This document shows, piece by piece, positions 1,243 through 54,776 of a stretch of DNA of 64,000 bases; position 1 is the stretch's first letter; each line of letters starts with the position of its first letter. Both the position numbers and the translations under genes were made by a program. Location: NCBI GenBank assembly GCA_951406725.2, contig OX597816.1:63178001-63242000 (forward strand), in the 5' to 3' direction. The DNA is from Octopus vulgaris (lineage: Eukaryota). Below the pieces are notes generated by a model. The model worked only from the letters and a program-made list of their open reading frames with translations, searched no databases and was not told the origin of the DNA.

Positions 1243-1412
1243 GGAGGGTTTACGAAAAAAACAAAAGACGATGACAGCTGGTGTACAAAACAAACAGATG
1301 TATTAGTATAACGTTCAGGAATAGAGAAAGTATTTTACGTTTCGAGCCTACACTCTTCTACAGAAAGGGATACAGAAAAAAAAACAACGAGAGAAACAAG
1401 GAGAGAAAAAAA
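1243..1412 (-). mobile_element. Short repeat family F carrying a variant hammerhead-like motif
   Basis: Near-identical to 4055-4243, 18948-19110 and 29285-29645; minus strand reads ctgtaga-agagtgtaggctc-gaaacgta at ~1331-1368. Confidence 0.7.
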
Positions 1413-3964: not shown

Positions 3965-4107
3965 CTCTCAACCTTGAACTTGTTCGTATAAACTGTCCCG
4001 TTCGTTTTATTTTATTTTCTCATATATTATCTTTTTTTACATTCATTTCATCTTCTGCACGCATTTTTTTTCTCTCCTTGTTTCTTTCCGTGTTTCTTTT
4101 CTGTGTA

Positions 4108-4145
4108 TCTTTCTGTTGAAGAGCGTAGGCTCGAAACGTAAAAGA
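4108..4145 (+). ncRNA. Minimal type I hammerhead-like motif with A6U core variant (family F)
   Basis: tcttt-CTGTTGA-a-gagc(gtag)gctc-GAAA-cgTA-aaaga: 5-bp stem I, 4-bp stem II, palindromic ACGT stem III. Confidence 0.55.
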
Positions 4146-4241
4146 CTTGTTTTATTTATATTCCTGAGCGCCATACTAATACAATTGTTTGTTTGTATTC
4201 CACCTGCCTTCGTCTTTTGTTTATTTTCATAAAGCTTCCTG

Positions 4242-7669: not shown

Positions 7670-8287
7670 GTGAAATTTTTTTTCCCACGAGAGTTCCATA
7701 CCCCAGTAATGAACTCATTTGCATACAGCTAATCAGAGCGTACCTCGACCTTGTTGTCAAGTTAACAAAGGTTGCCTAGATGTAAAGCCCAACATAACAT
7801 TCATGAATGTGTTAAAAACAACCAATCTCTTTGTAAAACGCACTCTACCAAGTAAACTCAAGATGAAGAGCAGTCGGCCGATTGCCAAATTATGCCAGAT
7901 TTTAGAAGGAGACGAGTAATTAGATAGATTTGCATCTATACCTATTATCGGATTTTGTTAGGGCCCCATATGGAAAAGATGAGGGTGAGAAAAATGTGGG
8001 TAGAGGGTGATGTGCTAGCAACCCTCTCTTTTTACTGTTTTGCAAAGTAAACAACAAAGTAACAAATAACTAAGCAGAGTCAGCCATGGTTGAAACAAGA
8101 ACAAGAACTACAAGCATTATTAAAAAAGAAAAAAGCATGGTCATTCCTTACCCAAGTGACCTTATCTTATCGCCCATCACTTGTTATGCATTCGTAAATT
8201 AGTTTGATAGTTGAGCTCTGATTGGCTGTATGCAAATGAGTTCATAACTGGGATCCGGAACTCTCGTGGGAAAAAAAAAAATTTCTC
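7670..8287. mobile_element. MITE with ~70-bp TIRs and a degenerate 9-bp TSD (Mutator-like by inference), inserted into a family C SINE
   Basis: TIRs 7670-7739 and 8215-8287; flanks atccagctg / atccaacta (7/9 match); host SINE resumes at 8288. Confidence 0.75.
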
Positions 8288-17656: not shown

Positions 17657-17681
17657 CTCTCTATTAAGCTATTTGCCAGAA

Positions 17682-17832
17682 TCTTCTGATGAGGATAACA
17701 TGATTTCACATCACAGATCTCAAAATCCATGCTAGTTCATCTTGTCTATACTCCAATAATAATATTGTACTTCATTACATAATATACAAGGTTAAGCTAC
17801 CTGTCAACATTTATCTGAAACAGCTGTAAAGA
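17682..17832 (+). ncRNA. Type I hammerhead ribozyme motif with a ~110-nt insert in stem II
   Basis: tctt-CTGATGA-ggataa[...]ttatct-GAAA-cagctg-TA-aaga: 4-bp stem I, 6-bp stem II, palindromic ACAGCTGT stem III; predicted cleavage after 17828. Confidence 0.6.
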
Positions 17833-18682
17833 GGAAATGGGATTACATCATTTATTTGTATAAGCAACTTCCCATATGAATCCTACACCTTGTATCTACT
17901 TTTGCTTATCTGTCTTTTCTGCTCATGTATATATGTATATGCATATATATATATACATATATACATGTATGTATATATGTGTGAATGTAAGTATTCCATG
18001 CTTGTTATAGGATGAGCAAAGCAGTGGTCATTGTTAACATTCTGGGTTGACATAACAGGTCACTTCTGTGTTTTTGAAGATTAAAATTTTTAAAGAAATA
18101 AGAAATAAAATAACAATAAAGAAAAAAAAAAAAAGAAACCTTTATCTGAAAACCAGTAAAAGTTGACATCAGGAAGAGTTTCCGGCCATAAAATACTGTG
18201 TCAGATAACTTTCCTATCCAATTCCATATTAGCATAGGAAAATGAACACCAAATGGACAAACATCGAAAGCAACCTTTGCCTAATAAAATTTTATAGACC
18301 TACACACAAATTAGCATCTTCTTTTTTATAAGTTGGGTGTCAAAAACTGAAAGTCATTTACACCTTTATTCTATTACTGTTTTCAGACACTGGTTATTGG
18401 CCATGCTGGGGCACTGGCTTTTATGGTTTACTCAATCATATCGACCCCTGTGCTTACTCTTAAGTCTGGGTTTTGGTTCTTTTATGAATCTATTTATCAA
18501 ATGGATAAATTTTTGGCACACCATGACTAACCTGTCATAGTTATACATAAACACTCACACACACACACACACACACTCACAGAGTTGTTTTGCAAGATTC
18601 TTGATGTGAAATCATGTCTTGAAACATGTATTGTTGCATTTTGGGATGGTCACGAGTTTTTTGTGCCAAATAAACACACACA

Positions 18683-18947: not shown

Positions 18948-19108
18948 AAGGAAAGTTTACGAAAATAAACAAAAGACAAAGACAGGTGGTGTACAAAACA
19001 AACAGATGTATAAGTATAGCGCTCAGGAATAGAAAAAGTCTTTTACGTTTCGAGCCTACGCTCTTCTACAGAAAGGGATGCAGAAAAACAAGGAGAAAAA
19101 AAAAATGT

Positions 19109-19110
<2 letters not shown>
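18948..19110 (-). mobile_element. Repeat family F copy with variant hammerhead-like motif at 19039-19076
   Basis: Minus strand reads ccttt-ctgtaga-a-gagc(gtag)gctc-gaaa-cgta-aaaga. Confidence 0.7.
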
Positions 19111-19164
<54 letters not shown>

Positions 19165-19227
19165 TAATTTTATTTGTCAGGGAATAAAAATTCCGGCATA
19201 ACAAATTGTTCTCAATGAATAAATATA

Positions 19228-19505
19228 TATTTTCATTTAGAGATAGTAGGCTCCTTCATCTCACCATATATAAAAGAATTTTTATTTTAAATACCTACTA
19301 CTTTATAACTTATGAGAAAATGATATAGGGGCCTGATGATTGGGGTTATATTTTAAGAATGGTTCCAGCAAAACACGGAGTGGTTCAGCAACCGGGAAAT
19401 GTACCTCATGAAACACGTGTAGCCAAGTTATAAAGTAGTAGGTATTTAAAATAAAAATTCTTTTTTATATGGTGAGATGAAAGGGCCTACTATCTCTAAA
19501 TGAAA

Positions 19506-19508
<3 letters not shown>
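19228..19508. mobile_element. Foldback element: ~84-bp inverted arms around a hammerhead-containing loop
   Basis: Arms 19228-19311 and 19425-19508 are near-perfect reverse complements; embedded among microsatellites. Confidence 0.85.
19330..19424 (+). ncRNA. Type I hammerhead ribozyme motif
   Basis: ggc-CTGATGA-t-tgggg.tatatttt[...]gaaatgta-cctca-t-GAAA-cacgtg-TA-gcc; extended stem II, palindromic ACACGTGT stem III; predicted cleavage after 19421. Confidence 0.7.
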
Positions 19509-19557
<49 letters not shown>

Positions 19558-20505
19558 ATGTTTGTGTGTCTGTGTTTGTCCCTCTAGCATTGCTTGACAA
19601 CCGATGCTGGTGTGTTTACGTCCCCGTCACTTAGTGGTTCAACAAAAGAGACTGATAGAATAAGTACTGGGTTTACAAAGAATAAGTCCCGGGGTCAATT
19701 TGCTCGACTAAAGGCGGCGCTCCAGCATGGCCGCAGTCAAATGACTGAAACAAGTGAAAGAGAGTATATGTATATGTATGTGTGTGTGTGTGTGTGTGTG
19801 TTTATCCCTGACTAGCACTTGGCATCTGGTGCTGGTTTGTTTACTTCCCTGTGATTTAGCAGCTCTGCACAAGTGAAAGATTAAGTATCAGGCTTAAAAA
19901 AAAAATTTTTTTTTAAATGGGATTAATTCAACAGACTAGAAATCTTTCGAGGTGATGCTCCAGCATGGGTGTAGTCAAATGACTGAAACAAGCAACAGAT
20001 AAAACCATGTACACACACAGACACACACACAGATAAATATATGACAGGCTTCTGTACAGTTTTCAAATACCAGATTCCGTGCGCATAGCATAAGTCGGCT
20101 GGAAGATATGCACCCAGTGTGCCATGCGGTGGCAAGCAGGAAGTGAACGTCTTGACTGCAGAGCCATGCATGCACCTGGTGCCCACAAGAAGCAGTGAAT
20201 AGATTTTATATATATTGAATGTAGGATAGCGACAGTGAGCTAGTAATCCATGCACCTTAAATGTGCATATTCCAAGAAGATTCCGGATCTGTGTCATTTG
20301 AAGAAAGAAAAGAATATAAATACACTCACACTCATCTACACACACACACACACACACACAGATGGTTTTTGTGTTAGGACAACAAACATTAATTAACGAA
20401 ATGTATTCATATACCTGTGTATTTGTGTATGTTTTTATGTATACATATATATTTGTGTATATATACATACATATACACATGCAAATATGTATACATACAT
20501 ATATG

Positions 20506-29284: not shown

Positions 29285-29643
29285 AGAATTCACAAAAAAA
29301 AAGATGAAGACAGGTGGAGTAGACAACAAACAGATGTATTAGTATAACGCTCGGGAAGTGAGAAAGTCTTTTATGTTTTGAGCATATGCTCTTCCACAGA
29401 AAGAAACAAGGAGAGAAAATAAAGAATGTGTAGTGGCTAATGTTCTATCATTAGCCCCTACACGCAATTTTTTTCTCTCCTTGTTTCTCTCCTTGTTTCT
29501 TTTCTGTGTATCTTTCTGTCGAAGTGCATAGGCTCGAAACGTAAAAGACTTGTTTTATTTCTATTCCTGAGCGCCATACTAATACATTGTTTGTTTGTAC
29601 TCCACCTGCCTTCATCTTTTGTTTATTTTCGTAAACCTTCCCG

Positions 29644-30065: not shown

Positions 30066-30324
30066 CATATATATGTACATATATATATTTATGTATGTAT
30101 AAATATATATACATATGTATGTATATGTATATATATGTAAGTATATATATATGTAAGTATATATATATATATGTATGCAAAAAGCAATAAAGATTCAAGT
30201 CAATTTTAATGAATTTACTTGAATATGGTACCTAACTTAGATGCACCAAAAAACTATACGGTTTTAACAATACAGTAATGTGGGGTGATTATAAGTGAGA
30301 AAGAAGCAACAAGAATGGATAAGT

Positions 30325-30415
30325 TTTTAGTACAATCGTTTCATACAAGGACAGGCTTTATTAAAAGTTGCAAAAATTGCAGCATATAAACGTGTCCCGT
30401 ATTCATCAGCTAAAA
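30325..30415 (-). ncRNA. Type I hammerhead ribozyme in the 3' pseudo-LTR (sense to the PLE ORF)
   Basis: ttttag-CTGATGA-atacgggaca[...]tgtccttgtat-GAAA-cgattg-TA-ctaaaa: 6-bp stem I, ~10-bp stem II, near-palindromic stem III. Confidence 0.8.
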
Positions 30416-30564
30416 TACATGTGAGTTCTCTAGACATCTTAGTGGTTGAGGCTATACTCATGAAGTAATGTAGATAATTAAGTAACATAAACAGATTTCC
30501 AAAGTTCATTAAAGTTCTTTAAAGATGATGTACAGTCTTATCACAGAATTTTAAAAGGTTTTAA

Positions 30565-30856
30565 TAGCATCACAGAGAAGGTGACTTAATCCATAGTGTA
30601 CATATGAATTTCCAGAGATATGAGGAGGGATTACATACTCACAGACGACAAATTTATCCATGGCTAATCACAACGAGGTGGGTCTCAATTCCTGCTTATT
30701 AGCATTACAGAGAGGGTGAATTAATCCTTTGTATAGATGCACAATTTCCAATGGTGTAGATGTAAATTTCCAGAGAAATGAAGAGGAATTTCATATTCAC
30801 AGACGATAAATTTATCAATGGTTGAACACAATGAGGTAGGTATCAATTCTTGCTAT
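30565..30856. repeat. Two diverged tandem units (~135-155 bp) in the PLE 3' region
   Basis: tagcatcacagagaaggtga...cacagacgacaaatttatccatgg...caattcctgct is repeated from 30700. Confidence 0.7.
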
Positions 30857-31902
30857 ATGATTAGGTATTTGCCACATTAATCACATTACTGCTATTTTCA
30901 AGAGACTGTAGCTATTTAACTTTTAAAGGCTGAAGGGCTTTCTAGAGAGGCAAAGAACAGAAAGGGAAGGAAAGAGAGGAAAAGAGAGAAAATAAAGGAG
31001 GAGGGAGCAAAAAAAAGGGGGGGGGACTAAAAGAGAAGAGAAAAGGAAAAAGAAAAAAAGAAAAAAGAGAATAAGAAGAAGAAAAAGAAAAAAGAGAAAA
31101 GAGAAAGAAAAGAAAGAGGGAAAGAAGGGAGAAAAGAAAAAGAAAAAGAGGGTTCTAGTTATACAGAAGAATTAGTAGACGGCAAGTCTGGTTTTAATTT
31201 GCAGGCATCTAGGAACTAGAGGAGAATATTATTCCTTGACCAGTAAAACAGCTAATTTATTGCTAACGTGACGCCGTTGAAAGCAGTTATGAATTTAAAG
31301 AGAATCTAAAGAGATAACAAGGTCAGGGGTATAGGGGTCAAAGGCTAAAATCAAAAGAAAATACATTAGGAAAATCTAAGTATAATCTTATCAAAAAGTC
31401 ATTAAAATTTATTTATTTAATTTATTCGTTTTACTGTCTTAAGGAGTTGCCGTTATTATTCATACATTGAGGGACTACAGGTCAAATCTTAGAAGATCAT
31501 TTACAAGGTGTTAGGGAATTGTCTATCATAATGAAGATATTCATACTATCATCGAGGGAGTAGCCTTATTTATTTAATTTTGAAATAGAATTATGAGGCT
31601 TTAGTAACTCATTTTATTTTATTAAAGTTATGTTATTTAAATTAGATTAAGTTAAGAATTAAAAATTAAAAATTAAAATTAAGATTTAAAATTAAGATTT
31701 AAAATTATGAATTTGAAATTAAATAAAGCCTCAATTAAGCAGCGTATAAGTACTATTTATTTCCCTGTTCTCAAAAAACTGATGCAGATATAAGGAAAAA
31801 GATAACTGTAGTGTGAGAACTCTTAGTTATCTACTTAAAGCAGTGCTATACTAGTAAAAATCAAGTTATATCTATCTATCTATCTAGTTACGAATATTCT
31901 AA

Positions 31903-33378
31903 TCATTTAAAATATTTTAAAGTCTTCAATTTAGCGTGGACACAAACTTGACCTAGTTCGATATGGTTATTCAATAAGTTTCTATGTTTTCTATGCTTTA
32001 GAATTTCATACGTCTCCATGGAGCATAGTTGGCAACCAACCCTGCTATTTTTATACGGAATTGCTCTCCTAACTATTTCCCAATTAAGGTTATAATTATT
32101 GTTATTATTTTTGAGTTCCCAGATTTTGTTTGAAAGTGTGGTGGTACCAGCTTTATGACGTAATTTAAAAGACGAGATGTGATTTCTAACTCTGGCTAGA
32201 AAATTAATTGTACATCCAATGTAAAAATATTTGTTATTCTCCGTGGATATGGTACATTTATAGATTACATTATTTTCCCCGCATAGACCAGGTGCCGGGC
32301 ATTTTGATTTTATTCTACACTTACACACAGGAGGAACAACTTCAGGTTTTGGATAATTCTTGGGTAGATGTCTTAGGTTCCTATTATTTTGATTATCATG
32401 AGTATAATTGTCCTTATTGTTATTAATATTTTTATAGTTGGTGCTGATATCTAAAGTATTGCTATTATTTATTGATCCTTCTGTTTCATCTTTTAGGTCT
32501 AAAGTCCTACCATGATTTTTTATATTATTGGTAATGTTACTATTATTGTTAGTCTTTTTATCCAACTGCATATTGTTGTTATAGATATCACTGATATTTT
32601 CATTCTCCTTATTTTCTCCATTAGCCTTATTTCTATTATTTCTATTATTAACATTATTACTTCTATTAATATCGGTATTGTTATTATTACTATTAATGTT
32701 AATGTTATTAGTCATTCTGTGGTTACTAATTTCACCCATGTTCTGATAGTTACTATTGCTGTTTTTATTGTTGGTAGTATTATTATAGTTGCTATTGGTA
32801 TTCATGCTGATATTATTATTTTTATTTCTATCTTTCCTGGCTAGTTTAATTTTGTTATTATTAATCTTAGCTATTAAAGTGGACATATTTGGGAGGGTTG
32901 AATAAGAAATCCTAACTGTTTTCCTAGAAATAATTCTATGATATCTATGAGAGATTGGGAAATTTTTTTCTAGAATTACTTTGAATTTGTTCTGTATATC
33001 CGATTGTATCGCACAGTTGAAAGGAATATTCAGCCATATTATATCTTTTTTATTAAATTTAGGGTTCGTAGAATTATTACTATTCATCTCACCAGAGTTA
33101 TTGTATTTATTACCATTATTTTTATTTTTATTTGTGTGCATCTTTGGTTTATCTACTTCGATATTATCCGAGTTACCTATGTTTTGGTCAATGCTTCTAT
33201 TTGAATTGTTGGGCCTGTACGTTAGATTAGCGTTTACCGTTAATTTAATTCTACTTTTATTTCGGGCTTGGTCTGTATTGCTGCTTACGTGATTACTGAT
33301 AACTTCTTTATTAGGAATACGTAAGTTCTCCTTATCAACGAATGTAATCTTTTGGTTGTATCCTGCCTTAGTTAATGC
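31903..33378 (-). CDS. PLE polyprotein C-terminus: Asn-rich linker plus GIY-YIG endonuclease (frame open from 33378; first Met at 33141)
   Basis: ALTKAGY...IIWLNIPF...NFP..H.YHRI..R.TVRISYS..PN; CKCR.K..CP..G.C; NVIY...YFYIGCT..F.AR..NH..SF; CQLC..E; LLN; CVH. Confidence 0.85.
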   Translation of the reverse strand, partial: ALTKAGYNQKITFVDKENLRIPNKEVISNHVSSNTDQARNKSRIKLTVNANLTYRPNNSNRSIDQNIGNSDNIEVDKPKMHTNKNKNNGNKYNNSGEMNSNNSTNPKFNKKDIIWLNIPFNCAIQSDIQNKFKVILEKNFPISHRYHRIISRKTVRISYSTLPNMSTLIAKINNNKIKLARKDRNKNNNISMNTNSNYNNTTNNKNSNSNYQNMGEISNHRMTNNININSNNNNTDINRSNNVNNRNNRNKANGENKENENISDIYNNNMQLDKKTNNNSNITNNIKNHGRTLDLKDETEGSINNSNTLDISTNYKNINNNKDNYTHDNQNNRNLRHLPKNYPKPEVVPPVCKCRIKSKCPAPGLCGENNVIYKCTISTENNKYFYIGCTINFLARVRNHISSFKLRHKAGTTTLSNKIWELKNNNNNYNLNWEIVRRAIPYKNSRVGCQLCSMETYEILKHRKHRNLLNNHIELGQVCVHAKLKTLKYFK

Positions 33379-33500
33379 TCAGAATGGGAGTTAAATATAT
33401 CCTTATTGGATGATAATTTTGAAATTCTTAATGAAATATTTCTTACTAAAGATTCAATTATATTTGGGGGATGATTTGATAATTTATTTACGTAATTCGT
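33379..33500 (-). pseudogene. Frameshifted PLE RT-thumb remnant upstream of the GIY-YIG frame
   Basis: Manual translation TNYVNKLSNHPPNIIESLVRNISLRISKLSSNKDIFNSHSE (SNHP motif); shifts frame into ALTKAGY at ~33380. Confidence 0.8.
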
Positions 33501-33673
33501 GATTTCGCCTTCCTGTGATGCTATTAAAACCTTTTTAAAATTCTGTGATAAGACTGTACATCATCTTTAAAGAACTTTAATGAACTTTGGAAATCTGTTT
33601 ATGTTACTTAATTATCTACATTACTTCATGAGTATAGCCTCAACCACTAAGATGTCTAGAGAACTCACATGTA

Positions 33674-33764
33674 TTTTAGCTGATGAGTACGGGACACGTT
33701 TATATGCTGCAATTTTTGCAACTTTTAATAAAGCCTGTCCTTGTATGAAACGATTGTACTAAAA
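33674..33764 (+). ncRNA. Type I hammerhead ribozyme in the inverted 5' pseudo-LTR copy
   Basis: ttttag-CTGATGA-gtacgggaca[...]tgtccttgtat-GAAA-cgattg-TA-ctaaaa; predicted cleavage after 33758. Confidence 0.8.
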
Positions 33765-34045
33765 ACTTATCCATTCTTGTTGCTTCTTTCTCGCGTATAT
33801 ATATGTATGTATATTTATATATATATATATATCATCATCATCATCATCATCATCGTTTGTATATATATATATGTACATATATATGTGTGTATATATATAT
33901 GTATATATACATATGTAAGTATATGCATGTATATATGTATGTATATATATATGTATATAGATATGTATATTTATATATATATCTGTATGTCTATATATAT
34001 ATATTTGTGTGTATATATGTGTGTGAGCATATATGTATACATATA

Positions 34046-34892: not shown

Positions 34893-36080
34893 AGGATGGC
34901 TCCCTCACAGACAGTCCAACTAAGATCAGTGAGATGCTGAATGACCAGTGTCTTTACCACCCCATTGGAACACAGACAAGTGAACAAACCAGTGGACTTC
35001 TTTGCCACCTCACCTATAACCAGCGAGGCGGTTACAATAGAATGTATTGACATTAGCGAAGAAGATGTCCTACTAGCCATAGATGAAGTGGACACAAACT
35101 CAACTGCTGGTCCAGATGGTTTCCCAGCAATCCTCCTCAAAGCGTGTAAATATGCCCTGGCAAAACCCCTCAAGATTCTCTTCCAGAGCTTTCTTACAAA
35201 TGGCAAACTGCCAAGCAAGCTGAAGCTAATATGCCCAATACATAAAGGGGGAAGTAGAGCAGATGCCAAAAACTATAGGCCTATCTCTCTGACTTCACAC
35301 ATCAGCGAAGTCATGGAACAGATAGTCAGAAAGAAACTAATCGCATTCCTTGATGAAAATAACTTGCAGAGTGATACCCAGCATGGTTTTCGACCATGTA
35401 GGAGCTGCCTGACCCAGCTCTTACAACATTATGACTGGGTGTTGAGGCAGTTACTCAACAAATCAAATGTGGACGTAATCTACCTTGATTTGCAAAGGCT
35501 TTTGACAAGGTGGATCATTGTATGATATGCTACAAACTGCGTGACCTCGGCATAGCTGGAAAACTTGGAGTGTGGTTACATGACTTCCTGAAAGATAGGA
35601 GTCAGGCAGTAGTGGTTAATGGAGCCACCTCTATGAACACACAAATAGTGAGCAGTGTTCCACGGGGCACTGTCTTGGGACCACTGCTTTTTATAGTGGC
35701 CCTCTCAGATATGCCCTCAAATGCCCAGATAGCCACTCTGGCAAGCTATGCAGATGATACAAAAGCCTCGCAGAAAATACAGAACCCCAGTGATGTTGCA
35801 CACCTGCAGCAGGAGTTGGACTCAATCTACAGATGGGCTGAGGATAATAATATGCAGTTTAATGCTGAAAAATTCCAGGCCCTGCACTACCAGCATTCAA
35901 AACTGAATATTAAACTTACAGGATACACCGGTCCACAGGGAATTTCAATCTCAGAGCCTAAGTCTATGAGGGACCTGGGTATCAACATGAGTGAGGATAC
36001 CTCTTTCCAAGTGCACATTACCAGGATGGCGACAAAGTGCAGACGACTGGCTGGATGGATCCTAAGAACATTCAGAACCA
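34893..36080 (+). pseudogene. CR1-type LINE reverse transcriptase fragment
   Basis: AGPDG, NYRPISLTS, QHGFR..RSCLTQL, DVIYLD / frameshift ~35490 / AKAFDKVDH, VPRGTVLGPLLF, YADDTK, W..DNNMQFN..K; truncated at both ends. Confidence 0.92.
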
Positions 36081-36214
36081 CTGATAGAATATGTACTAGG
36101 CTTACAAAGAATAAGTCCTGGGGTCGATTTGCTCGACTAAAGGCGGTACTCCAGCATTGCCACAATCAAAAGACTGAAACAAGCAAAAGAGTAAAGAGTA
36201 TATATATACATATA

Positions 36215-36686: not shown

Positions 36687-36886
36687 CATACGATATAGTG
36701 TATATTTAAATACATAAGGAATCCACTTATAAGAATTCAACATTTTAAATGTTTTTCATTTTTCAATTCATTCCTGTCGAATTTTATCCCTAATTTTTGT
36801 GGTTATAGAACCTTGCTGTTCTTTCTAGCATGTAGAATTCCTACAAGCAGATTCCTTATGTGTTTAAATATACACTATATCATGTG
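36687..36886. repeat. Foldback element with ~55-bp arms
   Basis: gatatagtgtatatttaaatacataaggaatc pairs with gattccttatgtgtttaaatatacactatatc. Confidence 0.75.
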
Positions 36887-53294: not shown

Positions 53295-53816
53295 TTTAAT
53301 AGTTTAATTAGAAATGCTGTGCTCAAGGCCCTTTACTGAGTTTTATTTAAGACTGCAGGATAGAAGGGAGTCGTTCACTAACTAGAAGCCTAGCTTGCTG
53401 GAAGCACACTATGGTGGTGTCAAACCAGGCCCTGGGTTAACTTTACCACTCAGTGCTATTTTCATTGTTACTACATTATTTAGCAGTGGTCTTTTATCTC
53501 CTGGTTCTGGATTCAAAATTTATTGAAACCAGATTGATATCAAACACTCTCTGCTTCTTTAAACATAAAATTGCTGCCATGGATGGCATTGTGGTCATTA
53601 GGAAATTCATATATTTGGACATTGTTCTTCTCTCTTTGACCAGTTTCATCTGGTTGATATTTTTGCATCTGATAACCTGGAGTTAAAAGGTTTCATTTGT
53701 TGTTATTGCTTCTGTGAGTGGTGGATACCTGATATAAAGGATTAATAACCTACCTGGCATAAACCATTAAAAGGATATCTAACTCTGGAGATTAAGCTTA
53801 ATATATAATAAATACA

Positions 53817-54223
53817 GTAGTTGTATACTGTCAACTTAATGTGACAGTCCCAAGAAGGGAATAATACTACTGCTATTTAGCCCTAGGAAGCAGCAACACT
53901 TCCTGTGGGCCTTAACACATTTCCTGTGTCCTTATGTTTGCAAGGGAGAGATAAGCACCACCACCCAGCTAAGCCTGCATTCAGAGACTAGTTTCTGAGT
54001 CTTTGCTCGTCTTCAGTCTGGAGTAGCATGGCTTGCTAGTTGGAGATGCCTATCTAGCCCTTGTAAACATATAATTATTCTAGTGAAATATGTTCACTGA
54101 TTTCAGAAGGACACAGGAAATGTGTCAAGGCCGACAGAAAGCAGTGCTGCTTCCTAGGGCTAAATAGCAGTAGCATTATTCCCTTGATGGAACTGTCACA
54201 TTAAGTTGACAGCACACAATTAC
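53817..54223. mobile_element. Foldback element: ~117-bp inverted arms around a hammerhead-containing loop
   Basis: Arms 53817-53933 and 54107-54223 are clearly reverse complementary (ctgtcaacttaatgtgacagt; ctactgctatttagccctaggaagcagca). Confidence 0.85.
53982..54020 (-). ncRNA. Minimal type I hammerhead ribozyme motif
   Basis: Minus strand reads caga-CTGAAGA-c-gag(caaaga)ctc-a-GAAA-ctag-TC-tctg; palindromic ACTAGT stem III, GUC cleavage triplet. Confidence 0.7.
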
Positions 54224-54776
54224 TTTATCATACCACTACTGCATAAATCTCTCTGAGAGATTTAGAAATGTATTATTACTAATAAATGCAGTTTTGCAAT
54301 TATTTAGAACCTTTCCATTGTGATATTTCAAATGAAATACACAGCTTACGTATTCCTCTTATCTATTAATTAATAGATAATAATAAAGATTTTAGCTGGA
54401 TTTAGTAAACTAACAGCTCTGTGATTAAGAATCTGGTTGCTTGGAATACAATTTGGAAAGTTCTTACATGACACTAAGATGTATTTTAATTTAAATATAA
54501 TCACCTCAAATTAGAAATAGTAGTTATTTTTGTTGTATCATGGGTTATTTTCTGTATATAATTATTTGTTGTTTTTTTTTCTCAATCATCACCATCATTA
54601 TTTTAGGTCTGCTTTCCATACTGGCATGGGTTGGATAGTTTTACAGGAGCTGGCTAGGTAGAAAACTGCACCATGCTTTGCTGTCTGTTTGGATGCTAGT
54701 TTATTTACATCTCTGTAACTTAGCAGTTCAGCAATATAAACCAATAAAATCAATACTAGACTTCTAAAAAAAAGTA

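What the first reader, a model, noticed from the sequence alone, without database searches (positions are those of the whole stretch)
19228..19508. Ribozyme-in-a-hairpin element 1: intact hammerhead in the loop of an 84-bp foldback
This ~280-bp non-coding element has inverted arms enclosing a complete type I hammerhead that directly abuts the right arm. It looks like a MITE but carries a PLE-type ribozyme. It may be a miniature non-autonomous PLE derivative or an extremely truncated insertion with an inverted pseudo-LTR (inference). A transcript would be long dsRNA with a self-cleaving loop.
Basis: partly seen in the sequence, partly recalled or inferred. Interest (0 to 1): 0.75.

Follow-up and report, generated by a model that had tools for sequence, protein, structure and literature searches.

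The report
Mirror-image stump of Hydra-type Penelope retrotransposon
This DNA hairpin is two cut-short copies of the end of a common jumping gene lying head to head in a TA repeat, and the self-cutting RNA motif inside it is the jumping gene's own and likely a passenger here, so it is ordinary, though such stumps likely record how these elements insert.

Summary
The 84-bp arms (81/84 match) and the hammerhead core are real, but the element is larger and is not a fixed unit. It spans about 19161-19508: two 5'-truncated 3' ends of a Penelope-like retrotransposon (PLE), joined head to head in (TA)n. Walking upstream in sister copies reached the parent ORF (RT, CxCx5C linker, C-terminal GIY-YIG), with the motifs of the Hydra clade; in one tandem copy the hammerhead, arm and tail directly precede the ATG. 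Of 86 family loci, 43 are inverted pairs, 143-3244 bp long, with scattered junctions: independent truncated insertions, not a MITE. The ribozyme is Hydra-typical (U-U at 10.1/11.1, palindromic minimal stem III) and probably needs a dimer; cleavage is untested. The inverted copy with a one-sided tail is published, and this scan has noted such stumps in this and other genomes. What is added: 42 of 43 pairs have exactly one long and one short end, the arms share source alleles, and in 18 pairs, this one included, neither arm can be a copy of the other. That favours two primings on opposite strands.

The parts
19112..19160 (.). (TA)n microsatellite, left flank and likely target
   Evidence: sequence; 110 of 128 family ends are followed by (TA)n
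19161..19227 (-). PLE 'tail' of the inverted copy (sequence between the short and long 3' ends; 8-nt deletion against sister copy L002); left edge uncertain by a few bases
19228..19311 (-). left arm: rest of the inverted 'long-end' copy, truncated 3 nt past the hammerhead cut site
19307..19311 (.). head-to-head junction; AACT (19307-19310) fits both copies, with one extra T
19312..19508 (+). forward 'short-end' copy, 197 nt of the element's 3' end, 96% identical to sister copy L005
19330..19424 (+). type I hammerhead motif: stem I 19330-32/19422-24, core 19333-39, U-U 19340/19409, stem II 19341-46/19403-08 with long loop, GAAA 19410-13, palindrome 19413-20, cut site 19421|19422
19425..19508 (+). 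right arm: 3' end of the forward copy up to the family's short end
19509..19545 (.). (CA)n/(TA)n microsatellite, right flank, running into a multi-copy interspersed repeat from about 19561

Best explanation
The sequence is two 5'-truncated 3' ends of a Penelope-like retrotransposon with Hydra-clade motifs, lying head to head in a TA microsatellite, likely laid down in one insertion in which reverse transcription was primed twice, on opposite target strands. Shown: the family, its ORF, the two fixed 3' ends about 70 nt apart, the variable 5' junctions, the one-long-one-short rule, and that both arms come from the same source subfamily. Inferred: the endonuclease cut both strands of (TA)n; one cDNA began at the distal start (giving the tail) and one at the proximal start; both stopped early and were joined through a few shared bases. 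The 84-bp 'arms' are the overlap of the two copies. The hammerhead is the normal motif of the element's pseudo-LTR and lies in the loop because only one copy was long enough to include it. It is probably inactive as a monomer, and the locus is a dead, neutrally decaying stump.
For: Multi-copy repeat: 754 first-look candidates, 146 exact matches to a 21-mer and 0 to its control. Most copies lack the left arm and continue upstream in shared sequence into an ORF with RT and GIY-YIG-like motifs; L096 holds 3' UTR, hammerhead, arm and tail directly before the ATG. A related family's ORF (56% identical over 491 aa) finds 37 homologues, one with RVT_1. 43 inverted pairs in 86 loci, 42 of 43 with one long and one short end, P about 5e-12 against free choice of ends; 20 of 21 in the 54 loci fetched after the idea arose. 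The short arm reaches more than 5 nt further 5' in 18 pairs, the long arm in 18, and 6 are level. Arms share 106 of 145 subfamily-allele sites (73%) against 14% in permuted pairs, maximum 31% in 2000 permutations. The three arm differences here are private changes, none compensatory. The architecture is published (PMC3846280; PMC8557442); two RT start sites and extension of both strands were shown in vitro for another PLE (PMC11167929).
Against: The priming steps are inferred from genome structure alone. [quoted passage not shown] 45 of 131 arms have no partner within the stretch fetched, so a paired event is not shown for every insertion. One pair (L135) is short/short. Pfam gave only a sub-threshold GIY-YIG hit (E 0.02, cut-off not reached) and no RT hit for the family's own ORF pieces; the assignment rests on motifs and homologues, with no tree. 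No target-site duplication can be read in the microsatellite. Junction overlaps (17 of 30 direct junctions) are soft evidence, because BLAST ends extend in AT-rich DNA.
Confidence: 0.9

Rival explanations
1. Same identity (truncated PLE ends), but the mirror image arises by self-priming or snap-back of one cDNA, or on an antisense template, and the tail is left by endonuclease resolution of the intermediate.
For: Proposed in print: self-priming on an antisense template (PMC3846280) and tail by EN-mediated resolution (PMC8557442). Arms share source alleles, as one template predicts. 6 of 42 pairs have both 5' ends within 5 nt.
Against: In 18 of 42 pairs, including this locus, the short arm holds 5' sequence missing from the long arm while the long arm holds the tail missing from the short arm, so neither is a copy of the other. 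Two pairs (L016, L140) have no overlap at all.
Confidence: 0.2
2. A MITE-like or miniature non-autonomous unit (arms plus ribozyme) that moves as a whole.
For: Short, non-coding, long inverted arms, TA flanks; three other loci align over the whole 281 bp.
Against: Those three have different junctions; junctions are scattered over the 43 pairs (42 distinct 4-nt-binned junction classes); the ends are asymmetric; the sequence is continuous with an RT-encoding element; 24 of 43 pairs hold no whole hammerhead.
Confidence: 0.02
3. The stump has been co-opted as a hairpin RNA (siRNA source, editing substrate or self-cleaving regulator).
For: Very stable fold; core letters intact; contigs identical to this copy occur in two runs of one study that are guessed to be RNA.
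Against: Arm mismatches are uncompensated private changes and a loop-II hairpin is broken; 42 similar pairs lie elsewhere with arbitrary content; the runs are only guessed to be RNA, and no control stretch was laid. No host protein domain was found in 150 open frames of the window, so no host transcript is identified.
Confidence: 0.05
4. The inverted copy stops 3 nt past the cut site because its template RNA had been cleaved by the hammerhead in vivo.
For: 6 of 125 other arms begin within -1..+3 of the cut site against 2.3 expected (P 0.03, including the loci that prompted the idea).
Against: In the independent 54 loci: 3 observed, 1.8 expected, P 0.26; a higher peak lies at +40 in AT-rich sequence. 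No reads ending at the cut site were seen for PAc.
Confidence: 0.12

Closest known systems
Hydra clade of C-terminal EN+ Penelope-like elements (Craig et al. 2021, PMC8557442; e.g. Penelope-13_HM, Hydra-1_Obim)
   Same: RT then C-terminal GIY-YIG, DKT, CxCx5C linker, no CCHH, CxxC and CxH, (TA)n targets, hammerhead near the 3' end with U-U at 10.1/11.1 (14 of 25 Hydra families in suppl. file S2, counted by eye); Penelope-13_HM is noted with a 5'-truncated inverted copy.
   Different: Unit about 3.9 kb (L097) rather than under 3 kb, with an asparagine-rich insert and about 1 kb of 3' UTR; KWK for RWK; hammerhead loop II about 56 nt; its hammerhead is unlike the one listed for Hydra-1_Obim, so it is a different family; tail about 70 nt rather than 30-40.
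Inverted pLTR with optional one-sided tail in EN+ PLE insertions (Arkhipova et al. 2013, PMC3846280; PMC8557442 Fig. 2)
   Same: Head-to-head inverted 5'-truncated copy, tail at one end only, AT-rich target.
   Different: Here both copies are cut down to under 200 nt, and the one-sided tail is counted as a near-strict rule (42 of 43).
Minimal type I hammerheads of metazoan PLEs (Cervera and de la Pena 2014, PMC4209133)
   Same: Short stem I, long stem II, palindromic minimal stem III, mostly single motifs from truncated PLEs; pairs on opposite strands 100-700 bp apart are already mentioned.
   Different: The G10.1-C11.1 pair that paper calls highly conserved is U-U here.
PAc Poseidon PLE in vitro (Frangieh et al. 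2024, PMC11167929)
   Same: Two RT start sites bounding the tail, both target strands cut and extended, AT-rich target, hammerhead in the pLTR not needed for insertion.
   Different: Other clade; there the tail lies inside the ORF, here it ends about 65 nt before the ATG; coupling of the two starts to opposite strands was not reported in the parts read.
L1 twin priming (recalled, not read here)
   Same: Two primings on opposite strands give an inversion joined by microhomology; L016 and L140 have the non-overlapping form.
   Different: Here the second start is a fixed site and the two copies usually overlap, which creates the hairpin.
MITEs (recalled) and non-LTR retrozymes (bioRxiv 10.64898/2026.07.22.740005, part 1 read)
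   Same: Short, non-coding; inverted ends as in MITEs; type I hammerhead as in retrozymes.
   Different: No fixed unit and no symmetric ends; no tandem array of hammerhead monomers.

Membership tests
EN+ Penelope-like element (parent family) | Single ORF with RT and GIY-YIG endonuclease | tested here: met
   RT motifs (DIDNYY, YRDDL) and VVYKC..YIG in one reading direction in L097, L056, L060; homologue with RVT_1; Pfam alone weak; all fetched copies of this family are broken
EN+ Penelope-like element (parent family) | Partial tandem forming a pLTR that holds a hammerhead | tested here: met
   L096/L065: 3' UTR, hammerhead and tail directly before the ATG; same hammerhead about 1 kb after the ORF in L056, L057, L060-L063
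EN+ Penelope-like element (parent family) | Inverted 5'-truncated copy and one-sided tail | tested here: met
   43 pairs, 42 with one tail
EN+ Penelope-like element (parent family) | Target-site duplication | tested here: inconclusive
   flanks are microsatellite
Hydra clade | DKG changed to DKT | tested here: met
   SDKT in L097, L100, L101
Hydra clade | CxCx5C linker before a C-terminal EN | tested here: met
   CNCMDKNHC in L056; degenerate in L097
Hydra clade | CCHH absent; CxxC and CxH around the conserved E and N | tested here: met
   one Cys only between VVY and YIG; CLLC and KCKH follow
Hydra clade | N-terminal RWK motif | tested here: inconclusive
   RLKWKA, a conservative variant
Hydra clade | (TA)n insertion | tested here: met
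   110 of 128 ends
Hydra clade | Groups with named Hydra RTs in a tree | not tested
Neptune clade (first guess) | CX2-5CxxC linker and CCHH motif | tested here: not met
   linker is CxCx5C and CCHH is absent
Type I hammerhead ribozyme | Conserved core letters and stems I-III | tested here: met
   core intact in 66 of 81 family copies
Type I hammerhead ribozyme | G10.1-C11.1 pair | tested here: not met
   U-U here and in most family copies; typical of Hydra families
Type I hammerhead ribozyme | Self-cleavage | not testable with these tools
   monomer fold share about 4e-4 by nearest-neighbour energies, which ignore tertiary contacts
MITE | Fixed-length copies with the same ends and interior | tested here: not met
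   spans 143-3244 bp, scattered junctions, asymmetric ends
Non-LTR retrozyme | Tandem monomers each with a hammerhead | tested here: not met
   one motif at this locus; neighbouring copies are inverted, not tandem

The most novel reading that the evidence does not exclude
PLE integration is a programmed twin priming: one ribonucleoprotein uses its two fixed RT start sites once each, on opposite strands of the cut target, from the same source RNA, so every insertion starts as a long-end/short-end head-to-head pair. The 42-of-43 rule, the shared alleles and the arms that cannot be copies of each other would be the genomic proof, linking the in vitro two-start result to the unexplained inverted pLTR and tail.
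Probability: 0.5. Interest if true: 0.5.

Novelty: new member of a known kind. Interest (0 to 1): 0.22.

Why it matters
The locus itself matters little: it is one of many stumps of a PLE family. The family data bear on an open question, how PLEs make their inverted pLTR and tail, and give a sharp in vitro prediction. It also warns that such stumps pass for MITEs or ribozyme hairpin genes in annotation. If transcribed, they would be ready-made long dsRNA for editing or small-RNA pathways, which is untested.

Tried and rejected
Rfam on the whole window and on the loop: no hammerhead match, only microsatellite-driven miRNA hits. Neptune clade: my first guess from the cysteine linker, dropped after reading the Hydra definition. 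U-U at 10.1/11.1 as a sign of decay: dropped, it is the family majority and common in Hydra families. Truncation at the hammerhead cut site: not supported in the independent set. C6:128.98 Mb as a tandem full-length copy: it is separate insertions. Pfam on ORF pieces: nothing above cut-off. Host gene: 150 longest complex open frames of the window gave only an unrelated RT at 34941-36214; short exons would be missed. Expression: no RNA holder listed on record; contigs with 0 differences from this copy, including its private letters, occur in X2 and X3, but they reach only 30 and 22 letters left of the junction, under the tool's 31-letter bar, the runs are only guessed to be RNA, and no control stretch was laid, so transcription is open. 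Literature: no paper held all of Penelope / retrotransposon / both strands / head-to-head / target-primed; no listed PLE paper held 'twin priming'; five searches in all, subscription journals mostly not covered. Sequence look-up in earlier findings: nothing.

Full report
Observation. The arms are at 19228-19311 and 19425-19508, 84 bp with 81 matches and no gaps, around a 113-nt loop. The region folds at -138.9 kcal/mol against -58.6 for shuffles, z -17.9. The loop holds every conserved letter of a type I hammerhead; a relaxed descriptor finds 4 such cores in the window and none in 100 shuffled windows. Rfam misses it. Stem I is 3 bp, stem II 6 bp behind a U-U pair, and stem III is an 8-nt palindrome.

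The element is bigger than reported. Sister copies have two fixed 3' ends: a short end, where the right arm stops, and a long end about 70 nt further on. The window's left copy carries that extra piece to about 19161, with an 8-nt deletion. The insertion is therefore an inverted long-end copy (19161-19311) joined to a forward short-end copy (19312-19508), between (TA)n and (CA)n/(TA)n. The 84-bp arms are the part the two copies share.

Parent element. The genome search gave 754 first-look candidates, 40 scored; most match only the loop and right arm and continue upstream in shared sequence for up to 720 bp. Walking further reached an ORF with a cysteine linker and a GIY-YIG-like domain, then RT motifs, then the N-terminus. 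In L096 the 3' UTR, hammerhead, arm and tail lie directly before the ATG, the partial tandem typical of PLEs; L097 is a nearly full-length broken copy of about 3.9 kb. The motifs (KWK, DKT, CxCx5C, no CCHH, CxxC, CxH) fit the Hydra clade as defined in PMC8557442 (section 11 read), not Neptune. That paper's supplement lists U-U at 10.1/11.1 in 14 of 25 Hydra families (counted by eye), so this feature is clade-typical; its octopus family Hydra-1_Obim has a different hammerhead. Pfam support for the family's own pieces is weak. A related family's 781-aa frame, 56% identical over 491 aa, finds 37 homologues with the same motifs (3 of them read). No tree was built.

Fixed unit or independent insertions. 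An exact 21-mer just inside the short end has 146 matches, 100 listed. I took the 85 loci that hold those 100 matches plus the window's copy. They hold 131 arms: 43 head-to-head pairs and 45 unpaired arms. Spans run from 143 to 3244 bp, median 325, and junctions fall into 42 distinct binned classes; 24 pairs hold no whole hammerhead, 7 hold two, and 6 look like this locus.

How it is made. 42 of 43 pairs have one long and one short end, and 20 of 21 in the 54 loci fetched after the pattern was noticed; the exception L135 may be a decayed long end. Arms of one pair share subfamily alleles at 106 of 145 sites against 14% for permuted pairs, and differ by 5.1% against 9.2%; rare variants are mostly not shared (21 of 185), which argues against wholesale conversion between arms (41 pairs with overlap). 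In 18 of 42 pairs the short arm reaches further 5', in 18 the long arm does, and 6 are level. Here the short arm has 114 nt that the long arm lacks, and the long arm has the tail, so neither was copied from the other. With the in vitro result that a PLE protein cuts and extends both strands and starts at two sites bounding the tail (PMC11167929, parts 1-2 of 4 read; passages), the simplest reading is two primings on opposite strands, joined at their truncated ends. That step is inferred. Published alternatives are self-priming on an antisense template (PMC3846280, passages) and endonuclease resolution (PMC8557442, passages).

The ribozyme. The core is intact in 66 of 81 family copies that hold it, as expected for a recently spread element. 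The monomer fold is rare by computed energies (about 4e-4, with or without the arms). PMC4209133 (parts 1-2 of 4 read) found no monomer cleavage for a minimal PLE hammerhead, low cleavage for dimers, and already mentions opposite-strand pairs 100-700 bp apart. I tested whether 5' ends pile up at the cut site, since this locus stops 3 nt from it: 6 against 2.3 expected overall, but 3 against 1.8 (P 0.26) in the independent set. Not supported.

Reality and expression. Contigs from another study match this copy with 0 differences, private letters included, which speaks against an assembly artefact, though none passes the tool's bar for bridging the junction. Whether the locus is transcribed stays open. 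No host protein domain was found in 150 open frames.

Verdict. Real, explained, and of a known architecture; this scan has reported the same kind of stump here and in other genomes. The family seems not to be the listed octopus Hydra family. The counted long/short rule is the only part of wider interest; my searches found it stated only qualitatively. The retrozyme preprint was read in part 1 of 5; its supplements are closed and may bear on related elements. L1 twin priming and MITE features are recalled, not read.

Noticed in passing
window 53812-54228 (tail continues to about 54280): Second foldback, 125-bp arms (88%), with a type I hammerhead on the minus strand (CUGAAGA core, palindromic stem III). 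Different family, 2535 first-look candidates; sister copies again show variable junctions and mostly one tailed and one untailed end.
   Followed up: partly
window about 30170-33799: Larger PLE insertion: 296-bp inverted repeats, 98% identical (30290-30584, 33505-33799), each with a hammerhead (G-U at 10.1/11.1); the left one has about 120 nt of extra tail; a 491-aa asparagine-rich frame at 31906-33378 (-) ends in a Hydra-like endonuclease.
   Followed up: partly
window 17680-17834: Single hammerhead-like motif with palindromic stem III and a 124-nt loop II, beside (TA)n; likely another PLE end.
   Followed up: no
window 18951-19110: Short repeat ending at the same (TA)n as the finding, with four more copies in the window (1248-1399, 4078-4233, 29295-29423, 29481-29640); possibly another TA-targeting element end.
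   Followed up: no
window 19561-19760: Interspersed repeat with 12 more matches in the window, probably a SINE (label recalled).
   Followed up: no
window 34941-36214: Broken reverse transcriptase, RVT_1 in two frames.
   Followed up: no
window 7676-8278 and 36692-36881: Further inverted repeats (64 bp and 52 bp) without a clear hammerhead.
   Followed up: partly
L026 1141-1782: A long/short pair whose short end is joined tail to tail to a further inverted copy, apparently a second insertion at the TA end of the first.
   Followed up: no
L066, L067, L076 around 1360-1440: ORF-bearing copies whose 5' end begins at the start of the tail, in direct orientation; not accounted for by the simple model.
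   Followed up: no
L100 3173-5515 (-), L101: Related Hydra-like family with a 781-aa open frame and long poly-asparagine runs, like the N-rich inserts described for rotifer PLEs in PMC3846280.
   Followed up: partly
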